Notes under the pieces: generated by a model
What the model saw: the letters and a program-made list of their open reading frames with translations, nothing else
The model's database searches: none
What the model was told of the DNA's origin: nothing
Made by a program: the position numbers and the translations under genes
Shown: piece by piece, positions 1 to 62,560 of the stretch
Numbering within the stretch: position 1 is the first letter of the stretch
How the letters are laid out: each line of letters starts with the position of its first letter
Assembly (NCBI GenBank): GCA_951406725.2
Contig: OX597824.1
Span: 52,824,001-52,888,000, forward strand
Direction: 5' to 3'
DNA: 64,000 nt
Source of the DNA: Octopus vulgaris
Lineage: Eukaryota

Positions 1-145
1 GTTTGTGAAAGCACGTGGTTGAATATATAGAAAATAGTAAAAAGTGAAAAACTACAGAAGGCTTAAAGGTTAAAAATATATATATATTTGCGTCAATATG
101 TCTGAAGAATATTAAAAAATTTTTTCTTACAATGACATAGTTTAG

Positions 146-184
146 AAGAAAGACCGGTTTCGCGTTTAGCTTTTCAAATTTCTT
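146..184 (-). ncRNA. Minimal hammerhead-like motif (U3/A8 core variant), left arm copy
   Basis: Reverse complement of 3178-3216. Confidence 0.6.
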
Positions 185-300
185 GCGACGTTATGTTTAT
201 CTTGAACAGAGTTATCTTTATGTTTATGTTTAAAAGAGTTCTAAATAAGGGGAGGTAATGAGTGATTTCTTCCGGTGTAAGGGAAATAATCGCTTAAAAA

Positions 301-783
301 TTAAAAAAATTTTTTTCCTTTCCCTTGGTGTGAATTTCTCTGTATCAGTATGTTGGCATGGTTAAGTCTGGGCTTGTACTTTTCAATGAAGAATGTTTCC
401 TTGTTTAGTCTAATTTGTGTTGATGATCCGATAGCACATTGGTAAAATGGAAAGATTAAAAATTGTGGTAGTAGTTGCATTGCGCATTTCTCAATGTGCT
501 CACTAAAAGGTATCATTCTGTATTCTGGGAATGCAATCTGTTGTCGATGCAGTGTGCATGTACGTCTGAGTGAAAGTCCCGTGGATCCCACGTAGTCTTG
601 GTGGCAGCCCGAGCATTTTATGACATAAATTATGTTTTCAGAGGCACAAGTAAAGTTAGACTTGATCTTGAATTTCTGTCCCTCTTTAAAGAGGAATTCT
701 GATCCTTCTAGCAGGTTTGGACATGTTGCACAGTTCGATCTACCACATTTTTTTACTTTTGCATCCGTAATTTCAGAAAACAA
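301..783 (-). pseudogene. Inverted duplicate of the PLE GIY-YIG domain
   Basis: Nearly identical to ORF 2597-3016 but keeps the C-terminus KETFFIEKYKPRLN. Confidence 0.88.
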
Positions 784-946
784 TTTTGCCTTTGTGAGAA
801 TCTTTTTAAGTGATTTAGGTTGTTTGTAGCTTTTAATGATTTGGTGTGTTTAGAATTTCCTTTAATTTGGGGTCCTTATGAAGTATTGGTAAATTCTGGG
901 TGATGATGGTGAAGGCTTCTTTGTTTCTGGGGTTGTATGTAGATAT

Positions 947-3016
947 CTTCAATACTGAAGATGAATCACTAGTCAAGAACAAAAGTGAACACATCCCACA
1001 CAGAGGAAGAAATAAATATCTTGACGAATTCTATAACCACATTGAGAACTTTCCCTACCATACTATACATAAAGAGAAAGTTAACTCAAATTTTAACACT
1101 ACACAATGGAAGGAACTGATAGAACTTCAAAATGATGAGGATATAACCATTAAGGAAGCAGACAAGGGAAATGCAGTTGTAATAATGGATACATCATACT
1201 ATAGAAATCTTGTAATTTCCTTGCTTGATGACGACCTACATTATGAAAAAATTACCAACTACACCCCACAAAAAAATAATGAAAACTCTATCTTCACTAA
1301 TTAAAACCCACGAAAAGGAACTAACAACCAAAGAGATTGGCTTTCTAACAAACTTTAAATGCAAACCTAGCCTTTTCTATGGTCTGCCAAAAATCCATAA
1401 AAGCCAAATTATAAATGAAACCATTAAAAAATCACTAAAGACATACATACACACACCTAACCCGGGGGACCTAAAACTACGACCCATTGTAGCTGGCCCA
1501 ACCTGTGAAAAACACAGACTAAGTCTATTTATGGACATCCTCCTGAAACCCTTCCTTAAACATATCGATAGCCATATCAGAGATGACTTAGATATGTTAA
1601 ACCACCTCCCAAAAAAAGCCAAGGAAGAAACAATCCTGATTTCATTTGATGTAGTTAACCTGTATACCAGTATACCTCATAATTATGGACTAGAGGCAAT
1701 ACAGTTCTGGCAGGACCAATTTCCGGAAGAAATACCAAAAAGGATCAGTAAAGAATTCATTACTAAATCAATTGAATTCATCCTACATAATAACCACTTC
1801 ATGTTTGACAATACATTTTACCATCAAAAATCCGGAATTGCTATGGGTACAAGGGCAGCACCAGTCATTGCGAACCTAACAATGGGCGACATGGAAATAA
1901 TCATTTACCAGGAATCTTTATCAATATTTGGAAACCCCCTTTCTCAATACATAAAAGAGAATTGGAAACGAATCTTAGACGATTGTTTTATACTCTGGAA
2001 TGAAAACACAGATAAACTCCTAAAATTTAAAAACCTATTGAACAGCATAAACCCAAATATACAGTTCACAATGAAATACAACCAAAAGGAGCTCCCGTTC
2101 TTGGATATACTAATTTAAAAAATTAACCTTAAAATAGAAACAGACATTTTTTACAAAGCCACAGACGCCAAACAATACCTTCTTTTTAATTCATGCCACC
2201 CAAGACACACTAAAACAAACATCCCCTTGAACCTTGCAAGAAGGATATGCGCAATAGTGTCAGAACAAAATACCAGGAACTTTAGACTGCAAGGACTCAA
2301 AAACACCCTAATTGACAGACATTACCCAGCTCAACTCATAGAGGGTGGGATCAGACGTGCAACAGAAATCAACATAGAAACTTTAAGAAAAGTTCAACAC
2401 AACAACACACCTTCCCCGAAAATACTACCTTACATATCTACATACAACCCCAGAAACAAAGAAGCCTTCACCATCATCACCCAGAATTTACCAATACTTC
2501 ATAAGGACCCCAAATTAAAGGAAATTCTAAACATACCAAATCATTAAAAGCTACAAACAACCTAAATCACTTAAAAAGATTCTCACAAAGGCAAAATTGT
2601 TTTCTGAAATTACGGATGCAAAAGTAAAAAAATGTGGTAGATCGAACTGTGCAACATGTCCAAACCTGCTAGAAGGATCAGAATTCCTCTTTAAAGAGGG
2701 ACAGAAATTCAAGATCAAATCTAACTTTACTTGTGCCTCTGAAAACATAATTTATGTCATAAAATGCTCGGGCTGCCACCAAGACTACGTGGGATCCACA
2801 GGACTATCACTGAGACGTAGATGCACACTGCATCGACAACAGATTGTATTCCCAGAATACAGAATGATACCTTTTAGTGAGCACATTGAGAAATGCGCAA
2901 AGCAACTACTACCACAATTTTTAATCTTTCCATTTTACCAATGTGCTATCGGATCATCAACACCAATTAGACTAAACAAGGAAACAAGCCCAGACTTAAC
3001 CATGCCAACATACTGA
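947..3016 (+). pseudogene. Frameshifted PLE reverse transcriptase / GIY-YIG endonuclease polyprotein
   Basis: ORF pieces 900-1304 (IKEADKGNAVVIMD), 1225-2118 (RT core), 2227-2547 (thumb), 2597-3016 (GIY-YIG), separated by frameshifts or stops; catalytic motif reads ILDD. Confidence 0.9.
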
Positions 3017-3177
3017 TACAGAGAAATTCACACTAAGGGAAAGGAAAAATTTTTTTTTAAATTTTTAAGCGATTATCTCCCTTACACCGGAAGAAATCAC
3101 TCATTACCTCCCCTTATTTAGAACTCTTTTAAACATAAACATAAAGATAACTCTGTTCAAGATAAACATAACGTCGC

Positions 3178-3216
3178 AAGAAATTTGAAAAGCTAAACGC
3201 GAAACCGGTCTTTCTT
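3178..3216 (+). ncRNA. Minimal type I hammerhead-like motif (U3/A8 core variant) in the PLE 3' terminus
   Basis: AAGAAA-T-TTGAAAA-GC-TAAAC-GC-GAAA-CCGG-TC-TTTCTT; palindromic helix III; helix I needs a 1-nt bulge. Confidence 0.62.
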
Positions 3217-3326
3217 CTAAACTATGTCATTGTAAGAAAAAATTTTTTTAATATTCTTCAGACATATTGACGCAAATATATATATTTTTTAACCTTTAAG
3301 CCTTCTGTAGTTTTTTCACTTTTTAC

Positions 3327-3358
<32 letters not shown>

Positions 3359-3566
3359 GTAAATGTAATATGTGACAATTATTCGGCAGCCATGATAAAA
3401 CACCAAGTTTCGGATGCCGAGGTGGAAATCCACGCCGCCATCTCTTCAGTTATCCGGCCATCGTAAAAATGGTATGAAAAATGACCGTTATACAAAGGGA
3501 AATTACTGTGTGATTGACCGTTATTAAGACAAAAGAGCTATTTTGTTGTCTTACGGTTTTTATCAA
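3359..3566 (-). mobile_element. Short non-coding HHR-bearing unit (solo PLE terminal repeat or retrozyme-like)
   Basis: About 210 bp, contains the HHR, bounded by (TA)n on both sides. Confidence 0.55.
3394..3454 (-). ncRNA. Type I hammerhead ribozyme with canonical core and extended helix II
   Basis: Minus strand reads GATAA-CTGAAGA-GATG..GTGGA-TT-TCCAC..CATC-C-GAAAC-TTGGT-GTT-TTATC; helix I GATAA/TTATC pairs perfectly. Confidence 0.78.
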
Positions 3567-16830: not shown

Positions 16831-17062
16831 AGGAGGCCTTGTGATATAGGTAGTTAGAGTAAAACCCACCTATTTCCTTCTGAAGCACATCTGCCCATTC
16901 TATTATTAAAGTAAATAAGTATCCATAGTTACACAACACACTTTAAAACTGAGAATTATGGAAATATTATTTGCAGAGTTGTTAAATAACAAATCAGGAA
17001 AATGGAAATATTTTGGAATTATTTATTCTTTATTTCACGTGTTTCATTTGCTAATAGTAATT

Positions 17063-17210
17063 ACAAAGATTTACATGCTATATAGACATGTAAGGAATTT
17101 CCTATTAGACATTCAGCAGACAGAGAAAATGTGTTTTATAAAAGAATTTTTCTATCTGACACTTGTAATAGGAAATTCCTTACATGTCTATATAACATGT
17201 AAACCTTTGT
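17063..17210. repeat. Imperfect palindrome of about 148 bp
   Basis: acaaagatttacatgctatatagacatgtaaggaatttcctatta versus taataggaaattccttacatgtctatataacatgtaaacctttgt. Confidence 0.9.
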
Positions 17211-17469
17211 CATGCCTATTAAGAAATGAAACACAAGTAATAGAGAATAAGCAATACCAAAATATTTTCTATTGTTATATATATTATTATTTAGCAGAAA
17301 TAACAGAGTGGCTCAAGGTCCGAGAGTTACGTGTGTTGGCACTTATTAAACTAGTCGACTTCTATATTTTAAGTTCTATTTTTCTTGTTTACAGCACCAA
17401 GCTCGCCCACATATATATTCACATGTGCTTGCCCACACTCATACACAGCATTTTCACATACACATATGC

Positions 17470-31020: not shown

Positions 31021-31373
31021 ATATATTATAAAGTAAGAGCAGGAAAGTTACATCAAAGAATTATCACAGAAGACATACGTTCAAAATAATTTTGTATTGA
31101 TAGATAGATGTATAAATATATAAAGTATGATTATTTAGAAAGTTTAAAAGTTTAAAATATCTTTAGAAATGGAATCTAAAATAGGTAATTATCTATTTTA
31201 GATTCCATTTCGAAGGGTAATACGTTCATGAAACGATCGTAAGATATTTTAAACTTTTAAACTTTCTAAATAATCATACTTTATATATTTATGTATCAAT
31301 ACAAAATTATTTTGGACGTATGTCTTCTGTGAAGATGTTTTGATGTAACTTTCCTGCTCTTACTTTATAATAT
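31021..31373. repeat. Nested fold-back: outer arms 31021-31163 / 31241-31373, inner hairpin 31166-31211
   Basis: tattataaagtaagagcaggaaagttacatcaaa versus tttgatgtaactttcctgctcttactttataata; inner gaaatggaatctaaaataggtaattatctattttagattccatttc. Confidence 0.9.
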
Positions 31374-34304: not shown

Positions 34305-36279
34305 CATGCATATATTAGAATATATAAGCCTAATACATATATTCATTCACATATACATGTATTCATGTATATAAATTGATAAGTATGTATATTACAATTA
34401 GGATCGGATTAAGGGCAACTGACATCCTAAGCACAACTAAACACTGTTGTTCCCTCAAACCTTTCATTGACAAAGTATTAAGACATAAAATCTGAATATA
34501 AACTAATAGATTAAAATTTGAGTTTTCTCTTCTAAGAGATTATCATATTTACTTCCAACTAAATCAGTTACAAGCTATTTTTTAACACGAAATAGTTGTA
34601 GCCAAGAGAAGCGAATTATTTACTTATTTGTAAAGCAACAGAAATATTTTAATATTTTTTTAATGTGTAGCACTTATTTCAATATCACCGTTGTTCATGG
34701 TGGCAAATCAGATCCTGCAACAATGTCTGTGGTACCAAAATTGGTCCCCAAAAAACGGATTTAATACCTTTAATTGTGAATCTGGGCCTAGTTACTAACA
34801 ATGCGAAAAATTCAAATAATAAGCTTCGGAAGCCGGTTCCCACTCTGATTGCAAGGATCAGCGTCCAAAATGATACTCCCAATGCATACGTGCATATATT
34901 TTGCATAGTAGCTGTATGTCTGTTAATTTATCTGTCCTCCCAACCATCTATCTTTCCAAAGATATATGTATATTTGTAGCCGTGTTTCGACCCTTGCGTT
35001 CTCTACTTTTCCGTTCTTATTCATCCTTTCCAACATCTCTCTATCTGTCTGTCTTTATTAAGGTGGATAATCAAAACAATAGAAACAACATTCAATCGCC
35101 CGTCAATAGTAGTCGCCGGTTGTAAAACAGAACCCAAACGACTGAAGATATTAATTCATTAATTCGTATTCGTTCATTCGTATATTCATTCATTCTTACA
35201 TTTTTGCTTCATTCATTCACGTATTAGTTTATTCTTTTATTCTCACAACCAATCAGCCTGCATAGCAAGCCAGTGTTAGTCAATAACACAGGCTTACAAA
35301 GAAGACAGACAGACAGACATGCGGACAGGCATGCAGCCAAACATACATGCAGACGCAAAAGTAACGCATTCATGAAGGCGCAGAGGATTATATCCATTCA
35401 ACATACCTCCAACCCTTACTCGCCCATCCTTCTCACGTCAGTCAGCCAACAAACCGGACAGCCAGCCAGTCGTCAACCTACATTAGGAATCGACGCCAGC
35501 CAGCCTACCGAGCAGGTAAGTCAGGAGTACAGGTATCCTCGTAGTGACATGCAGTTTCTAAACTGCTTGACATACGGAATTCAAACAGTAAAGCGCCGAA
35601 CTTTCTAAGCTTTTTGTTTCTAAGCTTTTTGTTCCGCCGTATTAGCGTCAAGTCTGCTCCATCATCGATACAATGATTAATAGCATAACATGGCTAGATT
35701 ACATTCCCCATATAAGTGACCATATGCAAAGTCTTACCGGAAACAGTAGGATGATGTGTCAAACGCTATGAGTTAAATAGTCACGTTCTTCGAAGTTTGA
35801 GTTCCAACCTCACCAGTGTCTATATAGTAAGTACAAAATATATTTGTAGTTGATTTAATCGTATATATCCCTCCCTTACAGACTTCCATCCTTGCAAGAA
35901 AATAGTGACGTTGTTGTTACTAGCTAAGTGGGACTCGATATCACTGAGGTAGTACGCATCAATGACTTCTTAGACCACCATTCATTATGTGACCATAACA
36001 ACATAAGGAATATTAGAGGGAATAATATATAGATATTTTGCTGCATTTCTGACGAATACACCCCAGTTTCTGTATCGGAATTGCATTTATATGTCGAGAA
36101 ATTGAAAAACTCACATTGGAAGTACCTAGAACTGAAGTGATAAAATTACGGTCTCTTTGATTTAAAGTGGCATAAAACCGAAAGAACTGGTCTTACGAAT
36201 CTTAGAATTCTTTCAATTATTTGAGTTTTCGTACATGTACCTATACACATCCAAATGTGCATGTATATGTATGCACTGA

Positions 36280-38607
36280 CATCCACATCAACATCAAAGC
36301 ACCGGAGGACCTAAAACTAAGGCCCATCGTGGCTGGTACCTCCTGTGAAACACACCGCCTGAGTAACTTCCTAGACATCCTTTTGAAACCTTTCCTTACC
36401 CACATCAAAAGTTTCATTAGGGATGATCTGGACATGCTCAAACACCTCCCGAAAACAGTTAATGAGGAGGCACTCCTGGTATCCTTTGATGTCATCAACC
36501 TCTACACCAACATTCCACATGAGTATGGTATAGAGGCAATTGACTTCTGGCTAGAAAAACACCCAGAGACATTCCCTGACCGCATTAACAAGTCTTTTAT
36601 TACAGAATCTCTTAAGTTCATTCTGACAAACAATTTTTTTCTCTTCGACGACACACACTACCGTCAAAAATGTGGCATTGCGATGGGTACCAAGGCTGCA
36701 CCAGTCCTTGCGAACCTCATAATGGGTTACTTCGAACTGTCACTCTATGAAATATCAAGCCAGAAATTTGGACATGTTTTCCACACCTACCTAATGGAAA
36801 ACTGGAAAAGGTATTTAGATGATTGTTTCATCATATGGAAAGAACCTTATGAAAAACTCCTGGAATTCAAAACCATACTAAACAACATACATCCCAACAT
36901 CCAATTCACTATGGAATTAAGCAAACATCATAACAGACATCTACCACAAACCTACAGACTCACAACAATACCTCCTCTTTAGTTCATGCCACCCAAAACA
37001 CACCAAGACAAATATCCCTTTCAATTTAGCTAAAAGGGTATGCACCATTGTCTCGGATCCAAAAACACGAGAAATACGCCTTCAAGACCTCAAAAAAACA
37101 CTATTACAACGTCAATATCCCTCCACCCTTATAGAGTATGGAATAAAACGCGCCAAAGAACTAGACAACACTACACTGAAAACCACCCAACCTAACACCA
37201 CACACAACCTCAAAATACTTCCATACATTTCCACCCACAACCCCAAAAATATCGAAGCATACACCACAATCATACAAAACCTCAGTCTACTGTCAACAGA
37301 CCCAAAAATGAAAAACATTATAAATACACACAAAATCCTCAAATGCAAAAGGCAACACAAATCTTTAAAAAAACTCTTGACAAATGCCAAACTTCACACA
37401 CCACATCCACCCCCAACAGTAAAAAAATGTGCACGCTCAAACTGTGGTACCTGCCCCTTTCTACTTGAAGGCTCTGAATTTACCTTCAAACAAGGTACGA
37501 AGTTTAAAATCAAGACTAACTTCTCCTGTTCCTCCGAGAACCTTATCTACGTTCTCACATGCGCTGGTTGCCAACATAATTATGTTGGACAAACGAGTCT
37601 CCCGTTACGTAAACGAGTAACGGTGCATAAAGAACAAATAAATCTCCCGGAATACCGACAAATTCCACTGAGTGACCACTTAGACTCATGTGCTAAAGAC
37701 TTAAACCCCAAATTCTATATATTCCCCTTCTACCAATGTAAAGACGGGATCACCACACAGGAGAGAATTAACAAGGAGAATCTCTTTATTGAAAAATTCC
37801 AAACACAACTTAATATGCAAACTCCTAGTTGATCAAACTTCCTTTCTCTACCTCACTCTTCATGGATGGACTAACACAAATATATAAAGATACCATGCAT
37901 TCATCACTTCAAGCTAAAACTTATATTCTTTAAATATCATTTTTACTATTGTTGTTATTACTATCATTTTTATTAAACTTTTATTATAAATGATATGACA
38001 ATTTGAAATGCAATTGTCTATGCAGATTTATATTATTAGAAAATAATATAAATAAAGTGTCAAAATCTGAAAGTTAAGTTAACAAGCAATTATATAAAAA
38101 AGATAATGCAAATGAAGCTAAAATGATAGTTTTATAATTTGGGTTTTATTGAAGAACTCAAAAGAGTTGTCTCCCCTTACTCACAACACAGGAACTGAAG
38201 AACCAGGACCACAATTACTACTACTTCCTGTCCTGCAAACATGCTGAATTTAACAACACAACACAACACATGCTCTTAATCCCTTTGGATCTTAACACCT
38301 CAAGGTAATTTTTTCGTAAACAACCATAAAACTCAAGATACACAACGAACTCACAATGTATCGGAGAACTTATTTTTTAATTTTTGTACATTTTTATCAT
38401 TATTCTTTTACAAAAAACAATGCAATTTTCTTTTTTTCCCCTTTCTAATTTTTAAAAAAACTTCTTAAAACATAAATATTCTTGACAAGTCATACAATGA
38501 CGAAAACCGGTTGAATAAATATATATTTATATATTTTATCAATTTCTCATTTTATTAAAATTTTCTTTCATTTGAGCATTCTGCATTTTTAAAAAAATTT
38601 TTCCTTA

Positions 38608-43450: not shown

Positions 43451-43621
43451 AATTTCTTTTTGCTATTATTTTCAAATTTGTTACCAAATGTATGGAACCT
43501 CTATTTTGCAGGATGTAAAGAAAGCAACACTGGCGTATTCAACGGCGAGAAACAAACATAAAAACATAGACCTAACTCATACACATATATATGTGTGTAT
43601 GTATGTAAACATATATATATG

Positions 43622-44793
43622 CAGGCATGAAAGAAGTAAATACATTAAAACATCGTTTTATGTTTATTCTAACATGTAATGGTATATATATATTTTTATC
43701 AACATTTTTATGTTTCAGGTTCTATATGTGACTGTTTAATCATTCCATGTAAAAAATTAAAAAAAACCTTTGGAACTCTCTGAATTTCAAAGAGGCCGCA
43801 ATGTGGGTCATTTTGAAGCTAGACATAAAAATTTGGGATCCCGCTTTCTACAGTTAATAGAGTGATTGAGAGGGGAAGCCATTCACATCACCTCGCCAAG
43901 ACCAACCAGGGCACTCTGACAGGACCGTTCTTTTTGCTAAGAGAAGTGTGAAGGATAATCCTCGCTCCAAGGCCTCTGACATAGCAGAACAAGTTGATGT
44001 CAGTCCCAGAACAGCTGTCATGTATCTCTACAAACTTGGTTACTATGGCAGAGCAACAAGAAGGAAGCCACTACTTCGACCAGCCGACATCAAGCGGAGA
44101 AAAGATTGGGCAGTGAGATGCCACTAGCATTTTGGAACACTCTTATATTCTCTGTCGAGTGTGGGTTTGGAGAATCTGTGATCAAGAATTCTATGTGAAA
44201 AGATTGCAGCCAACAATGAAACACGGCGGCTATTCTGTGATGGTCTGGGGAGCAATTTGGAGCAATAGTTGATAACAGCTGGTGGAGTGTGAGGGAAACT
44301 TAAACTCAGATAAATATGTGTCCATATTGCAAAAAATATTCCTTCTAATCTTCTCCAGTGGTGAAATGATTGAATAAGACTCTTTATTTAAGGAAGATGG
44401 GCTCCTTGTCACACGGCTAAAATGATCTAAGATTTATTGAATAAGATTGGCAAGAAAAAGCGTCTATAGCCAAGCCAGTCATCAGTTATGAACCCTATTG
44501 AACACCTCTGGGAAATAATGGACAGAACACTTCATAAAAAGAACATGAAAGCATCTTCAAATCCAGATATTTTGAGATTACTGCTTGAAACTTGGCAAGA
44601 CATTCCGCTAGAGAATATTCATCTAATCTGTAACAAGCATAATAGGGTCCTGGCACTGAATAATGTAAAGGGCATGTCTACTAAATATTAAATGTTGACA
44701 CTATAACAATTAATAAATAATTTGAATGTATAACTTCAGATTTAAATAAATTCTAATGACTATAAGTGTGTCTATTTACTTCTGTCATGCCTA
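43622..44793 (+). mobile_element. Degenerate Tc1-like transposon with TIRs
   Basis: TIR caggcatgaaagaagtaaata versus tatttacttctgtcatgccta; motifs [30 protein letters not shown]. Confidence 0.85.
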
Positions 44794-44928
44794 TGAATAT
44801 ATGTATTTGTGTGTGTATAGTATATATATATATATATATATATATAGTTCCGTGATGGTAAGATCAACAAAAATAGTACTCCATCTGGTGAAAGATAAAT
44901 ATTATTTCATAAACAATATATGTTTTAT

Positions 44929-45012
44929 GTGCTACTATTAGTTTCATCTACCGAGAACATGCGAAACAGTATTTTTAAACACATCTAATGTGGTAGCGTA
45001 ATCATCAGGCAC
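44929..45012 (-). ncRNA. Type I hammerhead motif with long helix II (left arm of palindrome)
   Basis: Minus strand GTGC-CTGATGA-[about 56 nt including CTACC..GGTAG]-GAAAC-TAATA-GTA-GCAC. Confidence 0.62.
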
Positions 45013-45048
45013 TGCCCACATGGCATAACGACGTATGCCATGTAGAAA

Positions 45049-45132
45049 ATGCCTGATGATTGTTCTAGGACACCAAACGTGTTTAAAAATACTGTTTTGC
45101 ATGCTCTCAGCAGATGAAACTAATAGTAGCGC
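45049..45132 (+). ncRNA. Type I hammerhead motif with long helix II (right arm of palindrome)
   Basis: ATGC-CTGATGA-[56 nt]-GAAAC-TAATA-GTA-GCGC; helix II pairing is poorer than in the left arm. Confidence 0.5.
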
Positions 45133-45280
45133 GTAAAAGCATATACTGTGTTTATTAAATTATATATATATGTTTGAATTTCAGAAGATTATTAAGGAAA
45201 GTTAACCTCGGCGGTATTTAAACAAATTCGCAAGACCATTATACCGGCTCTCTGAATATATCCTGTCAGCTTGCAGCATT

Positions 45281-45977: not shown

Positions 45978-48419
45978 ATATAAATCCTTAAATCCTTAAA
46001 AAATGTTTTAGCCCGAAGGCCGCGGCCATGCTGGGGCACCACCACTGAATGAGCTACACTAATATGTGAATCCACCTCTGATACGTGGCACTTGATCAAC
46101 AAGGGAGTTCGATGCTGCTGCCCGCATCTGCGTCTCCTGTCGTGAGGTAGGCTCATCTGGGACTCCCGACAAGAAGAGATCCAGCTTAGTTTTAAAGAAA
46201 CCCACATCCACACCATGTAAGTCTCTCAGGCATTTAGGGAGGATGTTAAAGAGCTGTGGTCCTCTGAAACCCAAGCTGTTGCAGTATCTGGACCTGTATT
46301 TTGATAGTGATGTTGGAATCTTTGGCACCATACAGTGGCGCCCCGTTCTGCGGTTGGGGTAACTTTGAATGCCAAAGTTTGGGACAATACCCTCCAGGAC
46401 CTTCCAGATGTACATCACCGCATATCTCTCCCGGCTCCGCTCTAGGGAGAAGAGGTTCAATACTTTCAGTCTTTCCCAGTAGCTGATATTTTGCATTGAG
46501 ACGATTTTCTTTGTGTAGCTTCTCTGAATTGCTTCGAGTTCTGCTGTTAGTTTTATATTGTGTGGTGACCATAGTTGGGAGCAGTAGTCCAAGCGGCTGA
46601 GGACGAATGTTTTCCATAGGACCATCAGTGTCTCCTTCTCTCTTGTTCTGAAAGTTCGGAGAATCCATCCAGCTAGCCGTCTGCATTTTATCACCAGATT
46701 AGTAATATGCACTTGGAAAGATGCATCATTGCTCATGTCAATGCCCAGGTCACGCACTGATTTTGACTCAGGGATTGCAATTCTTCCTGGGCCAGTGTAT
46801 CTAGTCTGCACGTCGTTTACCTTTGTCTGCCGGTAGCGCAGGGCCTGGAACTTACCTGCATTAAACTGCATGTTGTTGTCCTCAGCCCACCTGTATATTG
46901 TGTCCAACTCCTGTTGCAGATGCGCAATTATTTCAGGGTTTTGTATTGCGTGGGAGACTTTTGTGTCATCTGCATAGCTAGCAAGCGTGGTCATCGTAGC
47001 AACTGAAGGCATGTCTGAAAGGGCCACTATGAACATCAGTGGCCCCAAGACAGTGCCCTGTGGGACACCGCTTGTTATTTGTGTTTCCTCGGAGGTGGCT
47101 CCATCGCTCACAACTGCCTGTCTTCTGTCTTTTAGGAAGTTGTGCAGCCACTCTCCAAGTTTTCCGCCTATGCCGAGACCACGCAGTTTGTGACAGATCA
47201 TACCATGGTCGACTTTATCAAAGGCTTTTGCAAAGTCGAGATATATTACATCCACATTTGAGCCATTTAGTAGCTGTTTCAACACCCAGTCATAGTGTTG
47301 CAGGAGCTGTGTTAGGCAGCTTCTACCTGGTCGAAATCCATGCTGGGTGTCAGACAGCAAGTCATTTTCTTCAAGGAACATGATTAGTTTCTTACTCACT
47401 ATTCGTTCCATGACTTTGCTGATGTGTGAGGTCAGAGAGATAGGCCTATAATTTTTAGCATCTGCTCTGCTTCCTCCCTTATGGATAGGGCATATTACCC
47501 CCTCTTTCAATTTGACTGGGAGCTTACCACTTGCAAGAAAGCTCTGAAAAAGAAGCTGTAGCGGTTTTGCAAGGGCTCGTTTGCACGATTTGAGATGGAT
47601 CGCTGGGAATCCATCAGGTCCAGCAGCTGAGTTTGTGTCAATCTCATCTATGGCTAGTGTGATATCATCATCTTCGATATTGATGTACTCAATTTTTGCC
47701 TCTTTGGCCGCAGGTAAAGTGGCAAAGAATTCTTCTGGGTTGTTTACTTGCCTGTGTCCTAGAGGTGTAGTAAACACACTTTGGAATTGTTCGTTCAGTA
47801 TTTCACTTATCCTCGTGGGATTTCCTGTGAGAGAGCCATCTTTTTGGAAGAGAGGTCCTATTCTCTGGTGCACTGTGGCTGTCTCTTTGGCAAACTTAAA
47901 GAAAGCTTTAGGGTTTGATTTTATATTTTCTATTACCCAAACTTCTTTATCTGCTCTCTCCTTTTCCTGGGACTGATGCAGACTTTTCTCAATTTCCATT
48001 AGCATTCTCTCGAGCCGAGACTTCTCACCACTTTTGGTGTGCTTGCTCAGGCGGTTCGCAATCCTTGTCCGTCGTCTCATAAGAATCTTCCTTTCTCTAG
48101 GGATCCTGTTTTTCTTTATGTGTGTGCTGGCCCTGCACACTGGGACATATTTGTCACATATGGCTTGTATTATGGACATGAAGTGTTTGTGTTTCATGTT
48201 AATGTCCGGTGTGGAGAGACATTTAGGCCAATCCTGTTTGAGTATCTCTTTCTCAATCAACTTCCAGTTTACTTTATGAAAGTTTAAGTTGGAGAGATGG
48301 TGGATGCTTCGTATAGGCTGTGTGTCTACGGGGGCTTTTGGTCCATACATAGACAGCTCTATTATGTTGTGATCCGAGATCATTGTCGGCATCACATTAA
48401 CATTATGGATAATATCCAT
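45978..48419 (-). mobile_element. Young 5'-truncated LINE with short 3' UTR and tandem (AAGGATTT) tail
   Basis: 3' UTR 46058-46000 then ttttaaggatttaaggattt; 5' junction lies in (TA)n. Confidence 0.9.
46059..48419 (-). CDS. LINE ORF2 (CR1/L2-group): end of APE domain plus reverse transcriptase, 5'-truncated, uninterrupted 786 aa
   Basis: ISDHNII, AAGPDG, NYRPISLTS, QHGFRPGRSC, YLDFAKAFDKV, GVPQGTVLGP, YADD, RDLGI; no stops. Confidence 0.9.
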   Translation of the reverse strand: MDIIHNVNVMPTMISDHNIIELSMYGPKAPVDTQPIRSIHHLSNLNFHKVNWKLIEKEILKQDWPKCLSTPDINMKHKHFMSIIQAICDKYVPVCRASTHIKKNRIPRERKILMRRRTRIANRLSKHTKSGEKSRLERMLMEIEKSLHQSQEKERADKEVWVIENIKSNPKAFFKFAKETATVHQRIGPLFQKDGSLTGNPTRISEILNEQFQSVFTTPLGHRQVNNPEEFFATLPAAKEAKIEYINIEDDDITLAIDEIDTNSAAGPDGFPAIHLKSCKRALAKPLQLLFQSFLASGKLPVKLKEGVICPIHKGGSRADAKNYRPISLTSHISKVMERIVSKKLIMFLEENDLLSDTQHGFRPGRSCLTQLLQHYDWVLKQLLNGSNVDVIYLDFAKAFDKVDHGMICHKLRGLGIGGKLGEWLHNFLKDRRQAVVSDGATSEETQITSGVPQGTVLGPLMFIVALSDMPSVATMTTLASYADDTKVSHAIQNPEIIAHLQQELDTIYRWAEDNNMQFNAGKFQALRYRQTKVNDVQTRYTGPGRIAIPESKSVRDLGIDMSNDASFQVHITNLVIKCRRLAGWILRTFRTREKETLMVLWKTFVLSRLDYCSQLWSPHNIKLTAELEAIQRSYTKKIVSMQNISYWERLKVLNLFSLERSRERYAVMYIWKVLEGIVPNFGIQSYPNRRTGRHCMVPKIPTSLSKYRSRYCNSLGFRGPQLFNILPKCLRDLHGVDVGFFKTKLDLFLSGVPDEPTSRQETQMRAAASNSLVDQVPRIRGGFTY

Positions 48420-48514
48420 ATATATATATATATATATATATTTATATGTAAATTATAATCTAAAAATATTTTATATATTAATTATATTATGCATTTATAT
48501 ACTGAAGATATACA

Positions 48515-60729: not shown

Positions 60730-62560
60730 ATCAGAAACAGACAGGCGGGTGACTGAATGCATCCTTTTGCCCATGTTCCTCCACATCTTATACATCAACA
60801 AAAATTCAGTGACTCAAGTTTTTCCAAGTGATTCACATCTAACTATGCTGCAGCCCTTTAGAGAAAACAAAACACATGGTCTACATCACCTAAAGAAGTT
60901 CATCCACTTCCCAAACCTGGTTTGCTTTCACAGCTCTAGCAAGACCGCTATCTGGAGTGCAAAGGATGCCTTTGTGCTTTATATGACTTTAATCTCTCAC
61001 ACTTCCCAAACTAAGTTCGGTTCTCTTGGTCTGTTATCAAAAGAATCTCTACCAACTCTTTTTCTCTTCTTATAGATAATGTTGGCTATATAAGCAGGAC
61101 CCCCATGGGCAAAGCCCCCACCAGCTTTGATCCAACTGCACACTACACAACCCTGGTTAATCGCTTCCAAATATATCTTCTCCAACTCTACCAGGCTCTC
61201 CACCTTGCATATACATTCGCCAAAATAAAGCCATCGCTCCTTAAAATGTTCTTTCCGTTATACTCAAGCATAGAACTCCTATATTCACCAAAATCTTAAG
61301 TCTCTCACTCTTTACGGAAGTATTCCCTGCCATTTGAAGCACTCCTCTGTATGTCCTATTTAAAAGAAAGAAAAACCTTCCAACACAGCCAACAATCATC
61401 CTATTTCTCTCAACTCTTCATCTTTAAAATAACGAGGATGACAACGACGTTTTCTTACCCCCCCTCTCTCTCTCTTTCTCGCTCTCTTCAATGACCTATA
61501 ATACTGCTTCCACAAAAACAGACCCACTCTTATGCCACTCGCTTGAGGACTCTCGCTCTATTGAATTTCAGTGTAATGTTGTTGTCCTGACATCAACAAA
61601 CGCTTCAACTGTGTCTGGCATGCAAATCTCCAGTCAAAACTTTCTACCTACGGAGCCCATTCATTTTCATGTCAGGAATCGGTAGCTTCCTGTTTGATCA
61701 CAACATTTTGGCATTTGTCAGTGGAGATATTTCTTTCCTACTCTCAGTCAATTCTGGTGTTCCCCTGGGTTAGGTTTTTACCTCCCCTCCACTCTATTCT
61801 TTCTATACTTAATGGCCTACCTGGGGTTACATCCATCAACGCTCACTTTTATGTAGATCGCACCCTTCATCACTCTCGAACATTCCTCACCCATGCATCA
61901 ACAACATGCCAACCCGGCCTCCATTCTATAAACGGATAACTGGAGAGTATTTTTAGTAGGGCCATGTCAATTTTGTCTCCTTTAAAATCAAAAGAGCTCA
62001 ATACTTCTCACATCAAGGAAATACCACTGCACCATAATCCCAAAACACGAGCATCACTCGGGTAGGGCCCTGATGATCGTTGTAAACGCTTGTCTTTAGC
62101 CTCAATCGAGAATTTTTCTTGGTGGAACCACATGCTATGTATAGCTAGGCAATCTCAAAGGCAAACCCTTCTCTTCAGGGCCAGAAACTATTTTATCTCC
62201 CAACAACTGCTAACACTCTACAAACTCAGGATATCTTAGTGCGTATCACCAACATCGTCTCAGATACAGGAGTAGAACAGAAAGTGAGGCTCACATTCGA
62301 ATTCTACTCCTACATGTGAGACAGTGCTGGTGAAACGCACTAAGACATCCTGGGCCTGTATGCATAGTGAATCCACGAAATTAATTGGCCTTAAATAACT
62401 AAATAGGCACAGACTTTCATCTAACCTAAAGATGTGCCGTCACTTTTGTGTATTTTCTATCAGCACTATAATGGCTTCATCTCCTCTGATCTCAGTTCCT
62501 TAGTCTGATCTCGTACTTTCTCTACTCAAATCCTATCGACCCACTTTACTTTTATCACTA
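60730..62560 (+). mobile_element. Highly degenerate APE-RT LINE (Ingi/Jockey-like)
   Basis: SDSH (cf. SDH) near 60830, KAPT..D, NNHPISL near 61391, NSGVPLG near 61750, KVRLTFEFYS near 62281, in the expected order. Confidence 0.6.

What the first reader, a model, noticed from the sequence alone, without database searches (positions are those of the whole stretch)
44847..45170. Palindromic non-coding unit with two divergently oriented hammerhead ribozymes, flanked by (TA)n
Seen: a fold-back of about 250 bp centred on catggcata-acgacg-tatgccatg near 45030. Each arm has a full HHR core, CTGATGA..GAAAC-TAATA-GTA, one per strand and pointing outward. The arms match at the catalytic core but differ strongly just after CTGATGA, in the helix II insert. 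Known: PLE terminal repeats and retrozymes carry type I HHRs. Inference: this is a non-autonomous dual-ribozyme palindrome mobilised by Neptune PLEs. A transcript from either strand could self-cleave or fold into a long hairpin that masks the ribozyme.
Basis: partly seen in the sequence, partly recalled or inferred. Interest (0 to 1): 0.8.

Follow-up and report, generated by a model that had tools for sequence, protein, structure and literature searches.

The report
Penelope-type head-to-head hammerhead stub
Two tail ends of an abundant repeat, each with a hammerhead-ribozyme motif, lie head to head inside a TA microsatellite; this is likely a decayed insertion scar of a Penelope-like jumping gene, a layout already described, and not a new two-ribozyme element.

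Summary
Two arms (82% complementary over 105 nt, 6-nt spacer) each carry an intact type I hammerhead core pointing outward to (TA)n. The reading as a dedicated dual-ribozyme unit is only partly supported. Public contigs show that the arm belongs to a large repeat family whose coverage falls steeply from the 3' tail towards the centre. Six other head-to-head junctions of this family have their own centres, and one arm carries a 48-57-nt one-sided tail. These are published marks of Penelope-like element (PLE) insertions. Family-majority letters form 16 of 16 helix II pairs; each arm here forms 13, so both look decayed. The arms share three minority letters, which suggests one template. A read-through RNA would make the antisense arm first and bury its single sense ribozyme. 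The window holds a second such palindrome and a Neptune-type PLE with an inverted partner. Still open: the family's coding partner, whether a few tens of copies share this centre, and whether the long (56-nt), U·U-closed helix II variant cleaves. New member of a known kind; interest 0.2.

The parts
44821..44846 (.). (TA)n run at the left end, inferred target microsatellite
   Evidence: sequence
44847..44903 (-). One-sided 3' extension ('tail') of the left arm, 48-57 nt, absent from the right arm; most abundant part of the family
   Evidence: depth and loose ends
44904..45027 (-). Left arm: inverted copy of the element's 3' end
44933..45008 (-). Left type I hammerhead motif; predicted cut between 44933 and 44932; helix I 4 bp; helix II 13 of 16 family pairs (7 Watson-Crick, 6 G.U)
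45028..45033 (.). 6-nt spacer at the head-to-head junction, 19 nt upstream of each CUGAUGA
45034..45160 (+). Right arm: sense copy of the element's 3' end without tail
   Evidence: 45083-45275 found with 0 and 1 differences at single-copy depth in runs X1 and X3
45053..45128 (+). Right type I hammerhead motif; predicted cut between 45128 and 45129; helix I 3 bp; helix II 13 of 16 family pairs (12 Watson-Crick, 1 G.U); palindromic helix III
45060..45115 (+). 56-nt helix II region; in the family majority a rod of at least 16 pairs closed by U.U next to the core
45161..45171 (.). (TA)n run at the right end

Best explanation
The unit is two copies of the 3' end of an abundant hammerhead-bearing repeat joined head to head inside a (TA)n run, likely left by one Penelope-like element (PLE) insertion and decayed since. 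Inferred mechanism: a PLE RT/GIY-YIG protein nicked the TA microsatellite and copied one RNA template into two oppositely pointing cDNAs. They started at two nearby sites, which leaves the tail on one arm only. Both ended about 20 nt upstream of the hammerhead core, either at the RNA's 5' end or by fold-back self-priming, and were joined there. The ribozyme is the ordinary pLTR hammerhead of the family, of the dimer type. At this locus it would be masked, because any read-through RNA makes the antisense arm first and carries only one sense motif. Shown: geometry, tail, high copy number, 3'-to-5' fall in coverage, other centres in other copies, broken helix II pairs. Inferred: the enzyme, the clade, the order of steps, inactivity.
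For: (1) 1787-2377 contigs were laid per run in X1-X3, a count that includes the neighbouring Tc1 end. Against the unique flank (53 in X1, 43 in X3), summed depth is 62,423/94,708 at the tail, 21,893/20,186 at the right GAAA core and 637/1,095 at 45038-45059. The tool warns that depth is no copy number, so this is used as a rough gradient only. (2) Table 5c lists 7 distinct joints; 6 join left arm to right arm on one strand at other centres (44912>45083, 44947>45053, 44947>45086, 45011>45066, 45031>45098, 44962>45086, letters read by eye). (3) One-sided tail, as described for PLEs (Craig et al. 10.1101/2021.04.23.441226; PMC11167929; PMC3846280). (4) Head to head is the most frequent PLE inverted arrangement, with palindromes at the junction. 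Dual minimal hammerheads 100-700 bp apart on opposite strands were reported in 2014 (PMC4209133). (5) A PLE ORF with a CX4CxxC linker (882-3016) has a 96%-identical inverted 3' partner, both with decayed minimal hammerheads running into TA; a similar ORF at 36206-37832 matches RT and, weakly, GIY-YIG. (6) Family letters form 16 of 16 helix II pairs against 13 of 16 in each arm, and both arms depart from the majority at the same three sites (table 3). (7) Pairing probability of helices I and III is 0.0000 in the full palindrome on both strands.
Against: No coding PLE was tied to this family: no similarity to the window's PLE ends, and no real relative in the metagenome, viral or prokaryote collections. 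The tail is longer than the 30-40 bp reported. A target-site duplication cannot be read inside (TA)n. The near-exact symmetry of this centre is not what two independent random truncations would usually give. One other contig (45031>45098) ends its inverted arm within about 4 nt of the same point, so a preferred 5' end may exist. Contigs with this same centre would give no joint row, and only 32 of 6524 pieces and 15 of 54 joints were listed. Low depth near the centre also reflects this copy's own divergence. Only 2 of the 6 joints show a side over 30 letters. The helix II register was read from the majority letters, so 16 of 16 leans toward the family.
Confidence: 0.8

Rival explanations
1. 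The family is a short non-autonomous PLE derivative (a monomeric retrozyme-like or SINE-like RNA of about 190 nt, starting about 20 nt before the hammerhead). Symmetric palindromes recur because both cDNAs reach the same natural 5' end. The palindrome is still rebuilt at each insertion. This refines the best explanation more than it opposes it.
For: Near-exact symmetry at this locus. One other contig ends its inverted arm at about the same point (45031>45098). No linked ORF was found. Animal retrozymes are proposed to be non-autonomous PLE derivatives with many monomers (10.64898/2026.07.22.740005). Unchecked notes from other genomes report ends piling up just upstream of the core.
Against: No pile-up of ends was reported (table 6: none), though contigs show ends poorly. 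One X1 contig carries 127 further letters upstream of 45029 that do not fit this locus; their nature is unknown. No tandem copies lie here.
Confidence: 0.35
2. One reading: the whole palindrome is a mobile non-autonomous unit with two ribozymes, copied as such.
For: Both cores are unchanged while the arms differ by 18% (p about 0.011). Depth in the centre bin is 46-71 times the flank, which leaves room for a few tens of copies.
Against: Other junctions have other centres; the centre region is at most about a tenth as deep as the core region with both arms summed; no listed contig crosses the centre. Helix II is broken in both arms. Other non-core blocks of 19 and 10 nt are also identical between the arms. 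The sense ribozyme is always made after its antisense.
Confidence: 0.1
3. Post-insertion event: a single-arm insertion was later duplicated by fold-back or inversion, or two separate copies landed side by side in one TA run, or it is an assembly artefact.
For: TA runs collect many insertions in this window. No listed contig bridges the centre.
Against: No TA lies between the arms. The arms share three minority letters yet differ at 19 of 105 sites, which an assembly fold-back would not give. The right arm with its flank is present in runs X1 and X3. The same geometry recurs in other copies.
Confidence: 0.07

Closest known systems
Insertions of endonuclease-bearing Penelope-like elements (Neptune, Nematis, Hydra, Penelope/Poseidon): pLTR, inverted 5'-truncated partner, one-sided tail (Arkhipova et al. 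2013, PMC3846280; Craig et al. 2021; Frangieh et al. 2024, PMC11167929)
   Same: Head-to-head inverted 3' ends, short palindromic junction, tail on one arm, hammerhead near the 3' end, (TA)n target.
   Different: Both arms are cut down to 125-180 nt with no coding sequence; the tail is 48-57 nt, not 30-40; the parent family was not identified.
PLE hammerheads of metazoans (Cervera and de la Pena 2014, PMC4209133)
   Same: Type I core, short helix I, palindromic helix III (dimer type), pairs on opposite strands a short way apart.
   Different: Helix II region is 56 nt (rod of at least 16 pairs) against 7-8 bp in the Schistosoma motifs; U.U, not G10.1-C11.1, next to the core.
Animal non-LTR retrozymes, including axolotl HHR_Amex2 (Cervera and de la Pena 2020, PMC7229834; Li et al. 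2026 preprint)
   Same: Non-coding, low GC, type I hammerhead. HHR_Amex2 also has U.U at the base of helix II and cleaves weakly as a monomer (22% in 1 h), better as a dimer.
   Different: Retrozymes are head-to-tail tandems that give circular RNA. This unit is head to head, so one strand never carries two ribozymes.

Membership tests
EN+ Penelope-like element insertion | Inverted 5'-truncated partner, head to head | tested here: met
   other centres
EN+ Penelope-like element insertion | One-sided tail | tested here: met
   48-57 nt on the left arm only, longer than the 30-40 bp
EN+ Penelope-like element insertion | Hammerhead in the terminal repeat | tested here: met
EN+ Penelope-like element insertion | 5'-truncation series in the family | tested here: inconclusive
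   Steep coverage fall towards the 5' side; subfamily divergence in helix II contributes to it
EN+ Penelope-like element insertion | Continuity with an RT + GIY-YIG ORF | tested here: inconclusive
   No similarity to the window's PLE ends; no genome held
EN+ Penelope-like element insertion | Target-site duplication | not testable with these tools
   Both ends lie in (TA)n
Neptune clade | RT phylogeny and CX2-5CxxC linker | not testable with these tools
   The unit has no protein. Other PLE ORFs in the window have CX4CxxC; no tree was built
Neptune clade | (TA)n insertion bias | tested here: met
   shared with Hydra and Naiad, so not diagnostic
Type I hammerhead ribozyme | Core CUGANGA, GAAA, NUH | tested here: met
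   Both arms
Type I hammerhead ribozyme | Helix I and helix III | tested here: met
   Helix I 3-4 bp; helix III 3 bp with a 3-nt loop, palindromic, predicted dimer -4.2 kcal/mol
Type I hammerhead ribozyme | Helix II with G10.1-C11.1 next to the core | tested here: not met
   U.U next to the core in both arms, with no other letter listed there (60 rows of table 3 hidden); 2 of the first 6 pairs are broken in each arm
Type I hammerhead ribozyme | Match to an Rfam hammerhead model | tested here: not met
Type I hammerhead ribozyme | Self-cleavage after GUA | not testable with these tools
   Needs an assay
Non-LTR retrozyme | Head-to-tail tandem units with a hammerhead in each | tested here: not met
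   Head to head at this locus; no further copy in the window. Other loci were not tested
Non-LTR retrozyme | Circular RNA product | not testable with these tools
   Only contigs could be laid; no raw RNA reads

The most novel reading that the evidence does not exclude
Octopod-like genomes host non-autonomous mini-PLE families whose RNA starts just upstream of a natural hammerhead variant with a long rod-shaped, U.U-closed helix II. A subfamily of this one spreads as a ready-made palindrome in which the antisense arm switches the ribozyme off unless transcription starts at the centre. The left arm's new 5-bp stem, built from four private changes, would then be a re-selected helix II.
Probability: 0.1. 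Interest if true: 0.55.

Novelty: new member of a known kind. Interest (0 to 1): 0.2.

Why it matters
As read here it adds a likely octopod PLE family, with a long-helix-II hammerhead, to an architecture already in print, and shows that such dual-hammerhead palindromes recur in this window. The modest value lies in two places. Hundreds of copies with varied centres could test how PLE inverted junctions form (self-priming against two-site priming), which is unresolved in the papers read. The long U.U-closed helix II is a natural variant that could be assayed. If the novel case held, it would be a self-masking ribozyme element spreading as a palindrome.

Tried and rejected
Rfam: no match at gathering in the window; only weak hairpin-type hits at E up to 10. 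No whole genome is held, so copies could not be counted directly. Metagenome pattern scan: 55 loci, none homologous beyond the motif (best blastn hit 26 nt), helix I of at most 2 bp in 52 of 55; treated as chance. Viral and prokaryote collections: 0 matches to a 22-nt arm stretch. No RNA holder is listed. Run X4 (RNA is a guess) holds one contig over 45108-45275 at depth 3.5, which is not used as evidence of expression. ADAR hyper-editing as the cause of the arm differences: 15 of 19 are transitions, but changes polarised against the family show no A>G excess (read by eye); rejected. MITE: rejected, because the arms are directional 3' ends with a one-sided tail; the real TIR element is the Tc1 remnant next door. 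Single-arm folds do not reach the hammerhead shape (z 0.50 and 0.76; helix I/III probability under 0.3%). This is weak evidence, since dimer-type hammerheads fold poorly as monomers. My descriptor scan found 4 motif sites against 0-2 in 5 shuffles and missed the motifs at 3399, 17000, 31200 and 38482, so it is not a census. Literature: no description of octopus hammerhead palindromes in the listings seen (5 of 6; 20 of 51; 20 of 55; 15 of 45; 15 of 53). The O. vulgaris repeat paper has 0 uses of 'ribozyme' or 'palindrom', and its one held supplement lacks the motif. One supplement file of PMC4209133 could not be searched, preprint supplements were not seen, and Repbase/Dfam were not available; the family may already be catalogued there. 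Earlier scan notes gave no sequence look-alike.

Full report
Observation. The fold-back is real: arms 44923-45027 and 45034-45138, 82% complementary, with a 6-nt spacer, extending to 44895-45169 at 80% with gaps. Each arm has an unchanged type I hammerhead core pointing outward, at 45053-45128 (+) and 44933-45008 (-); the generic pattern is expected 0.07 times by chance in the window. Both ends run into TA repeats. Nine of 19 arm differences lie in the 17 nt after CUGAUGA-UU and none in the core. The left arm continues 48-57 nt beyond the right arm before its TA run. Rfam does not recognise the motifs.

Setting. The window is microsatellite-rich animal DNA of about 35% GC. The only species named among relatives of its PLE protein are Argonauta hians and Octopus bimaculoides, so an octopod host is inferred, not shown. 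A Tc1/mariner remnant (about 43621-44794, TIRs, transposase-like pieces recognised from recalled motifs) ends just left of the unit. Two PLE frames lie at 882-3016 and 36206-37832. Both match RT, the second weakly matches GIY-YIG below the curated cut-off, and both have a CX4CxxC linker. The first has a 96%-identical inverted copy of its 3' 860 nt directly upstream, a short hairpin at the junction, and decayed minimal hammerheads near both outer ends ahead of TA runs. So the same geometry occurs here on an element whose identity is plain. These elements share no sequence with the unit.

The family. No genome is held, so I laid contigs of 4 of 24 listed runs on 44620-45275 at 80% likeness. The unique flank has depth 53 (X1) and 43 (X3). 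The tail reaches 62,423 and 94,708, the right GAAA core 21,893 and 20,186, the centre bin 2,448 and 3,075, and 45038-45059 only 637 and 1,095. The tool warns that these sums are not copy numbers. As a rough guide they mean over a thousand tails, several hundred core 3' halves, and at most a few tens of copies resembling the inner arm ends, even with both arms summed. The right arm plus flank (45083-45275) is present with 0 and 1 differences in X1 and X3. Six of the 7 joints listed with their letters connect left arm to right arm at other centres, some symmetric, some not. By eye, one has its inverted arm starting at the predicted cut site, and one ends within about 4 nt of this centre. Limits: 15 of 54 joints and 32 of 6524 pieces were shown, only two of the six show a side over 30 letters, and copies with this very centre would give no joint.

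The ribozyme. With the commonest other letter at each site (four of them carried by only 39-68% of the depth), helix II forms three stems, 16 of 16 pairs, against 13 of 16 in each arm of this copy. The register was read from those letters, so the contrast leans toward the family, but it shows that the family motif is structured and that both arms here have lost pairs near the core. At three sites both arms depart from the majority (table 3), which suggests one template followed by separate decay. Seven of the nine clustered differences are left-arm departures. Unexplained: four left-arm changes together create a new 5-bp stem in a shifted register (seen in the fold); this may be a subfamily trait, template switching or chance. 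Next to the core lies U.U, not the G10.1-C11.1 of the minimal consensus. The axolotl HHR_Amex2 has the same closure and cleaves weakly alone, better as a dimer. Helix III is palindromic and predicted to pair as a dimer.

How it likely works. Craig et al. describe PLE insertions with an adjacent inverted 5'-truncated copy, a 30-40-bp tail on one end and (TA)n bias. Arkhipova et al. report head to head as the commonest inverted arrangement, with palindromes at the junction, and propose self-priming. Frangieh et al. show in vitro that a PLE protein cuts and extends both strands, starts at two RNA sites whose spacing equals the tail, and does not need hammerhead cleavage. Cervera and de la Pena noted dual minimal hammerheads 100-700 bp apart on opposite strands. 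Applied here by inference: one insertion into a TA run produced two short cDNAs from one RNA, joined 19 nt upstream of the core. Function at this locus is unlikely. In a divergent pair the antisense arm is always transcribed first, the hairpin is -139 to -157 kcal/mol, helix I and III pairing falls to 0.0000, and a strand has only one sense motif, so no dimer forms in cis. Only a transcript starting at the centre would free the ribozyme; nothing here shows one.

Rivals. A short non-autonomous RNA with a fixed 5' end (0.35, overlapping the best reading) would explain the symmetry. A palindrome spreading as a unit (0.1) is limited to a small minority of copies. A later inversion or an artefact (0.07) fits poorly with 18% arm divergence and recurring geometry.

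Comparison and verdict. It works like, and meets the testable marks of, an EN+ PLE insertion. The coding parent and clade are not established. It fails the retrozyme test at this locus (not tandem) and the canonical helix II test. A second head-to-head palindrome with decayed hammerhead-like cores and a long helix II lies at 17006-17267, and a third with one such remnant at 31023-31373. Unchecked notes from this scan report the same pattern in other genomes; they are not counted as support. New member of a known kind; interest 0.2.

Papers seen: PMC4209133, parts 1-2 of 4 and supplement passages; 10.64898/2026.07.22.740005, parts 1-2 of 5; 10.1101/2021.04.23.441226, passages; PMC11167929, passages; PMC3846280, passages; PMC7229834, passages and section 15; PMC13282606, passages and one supplement search. 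Hammerhead numbering and the Tc1 motifs are recalled knowledge.

Noticed in passing
window 17006-17267: Second head-to-head palindrome (81% arms) of another family. Both arms hold decayed hammerhead-like cores with the same AU-GAAA-C junction, a long rod helix II and, on the left arm, a palindromic helix III; only weak similarity to the main unit.
   Followed up: partly
window 31023-31373: Third fold-back between TA-rich ends. The right arm keeps GAAA plus a palindromic helix III; the left arm lacks about 27 nt there.
   Followed up: partly
window 22-3331: Neptune-type PLE (frameshifted RT and endonuclease pieces) with an inverted 860-nt 3' partner at 96%, a short hairpin at the junction (941-968) and decayed minimal hammerheads at 152-177 (-) and 3185-3210 (+).
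   Followed up: partly
window 3399-3449 (-): Hammerhead-like motif with a 5-bp helix I and a long helix II, in a 200-nt piece between two TA runs.
   Followed up: partly
window 36206-38512: Second Neptune-type PLE remnant with a decayed minimal hammerhead at 38482-38512 ahead of a TA run.
   Followed up: partly
window 43621-44794: Decayed Tc1/mariner element with terminal inverted repeats directly left of the unit; its 3' end is very abundant in the laid runs.
   Followed up: partly
window 46059-48452 (-): 797-aa stop-free frame with a strong RT match, LINE-like (CR1-like by recall).
   Followed up: no
window 62219-62360: Fold-back of about 140 nt (78%) with no hammerhead seen.
   Followed up: no
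window 44907, tables 2 and 7: Many tail-bearing contigs diverge right at the tail/body boundary into unlike sequence, so the tail may be shared among several families or often inserted alone.
   Followed up: no
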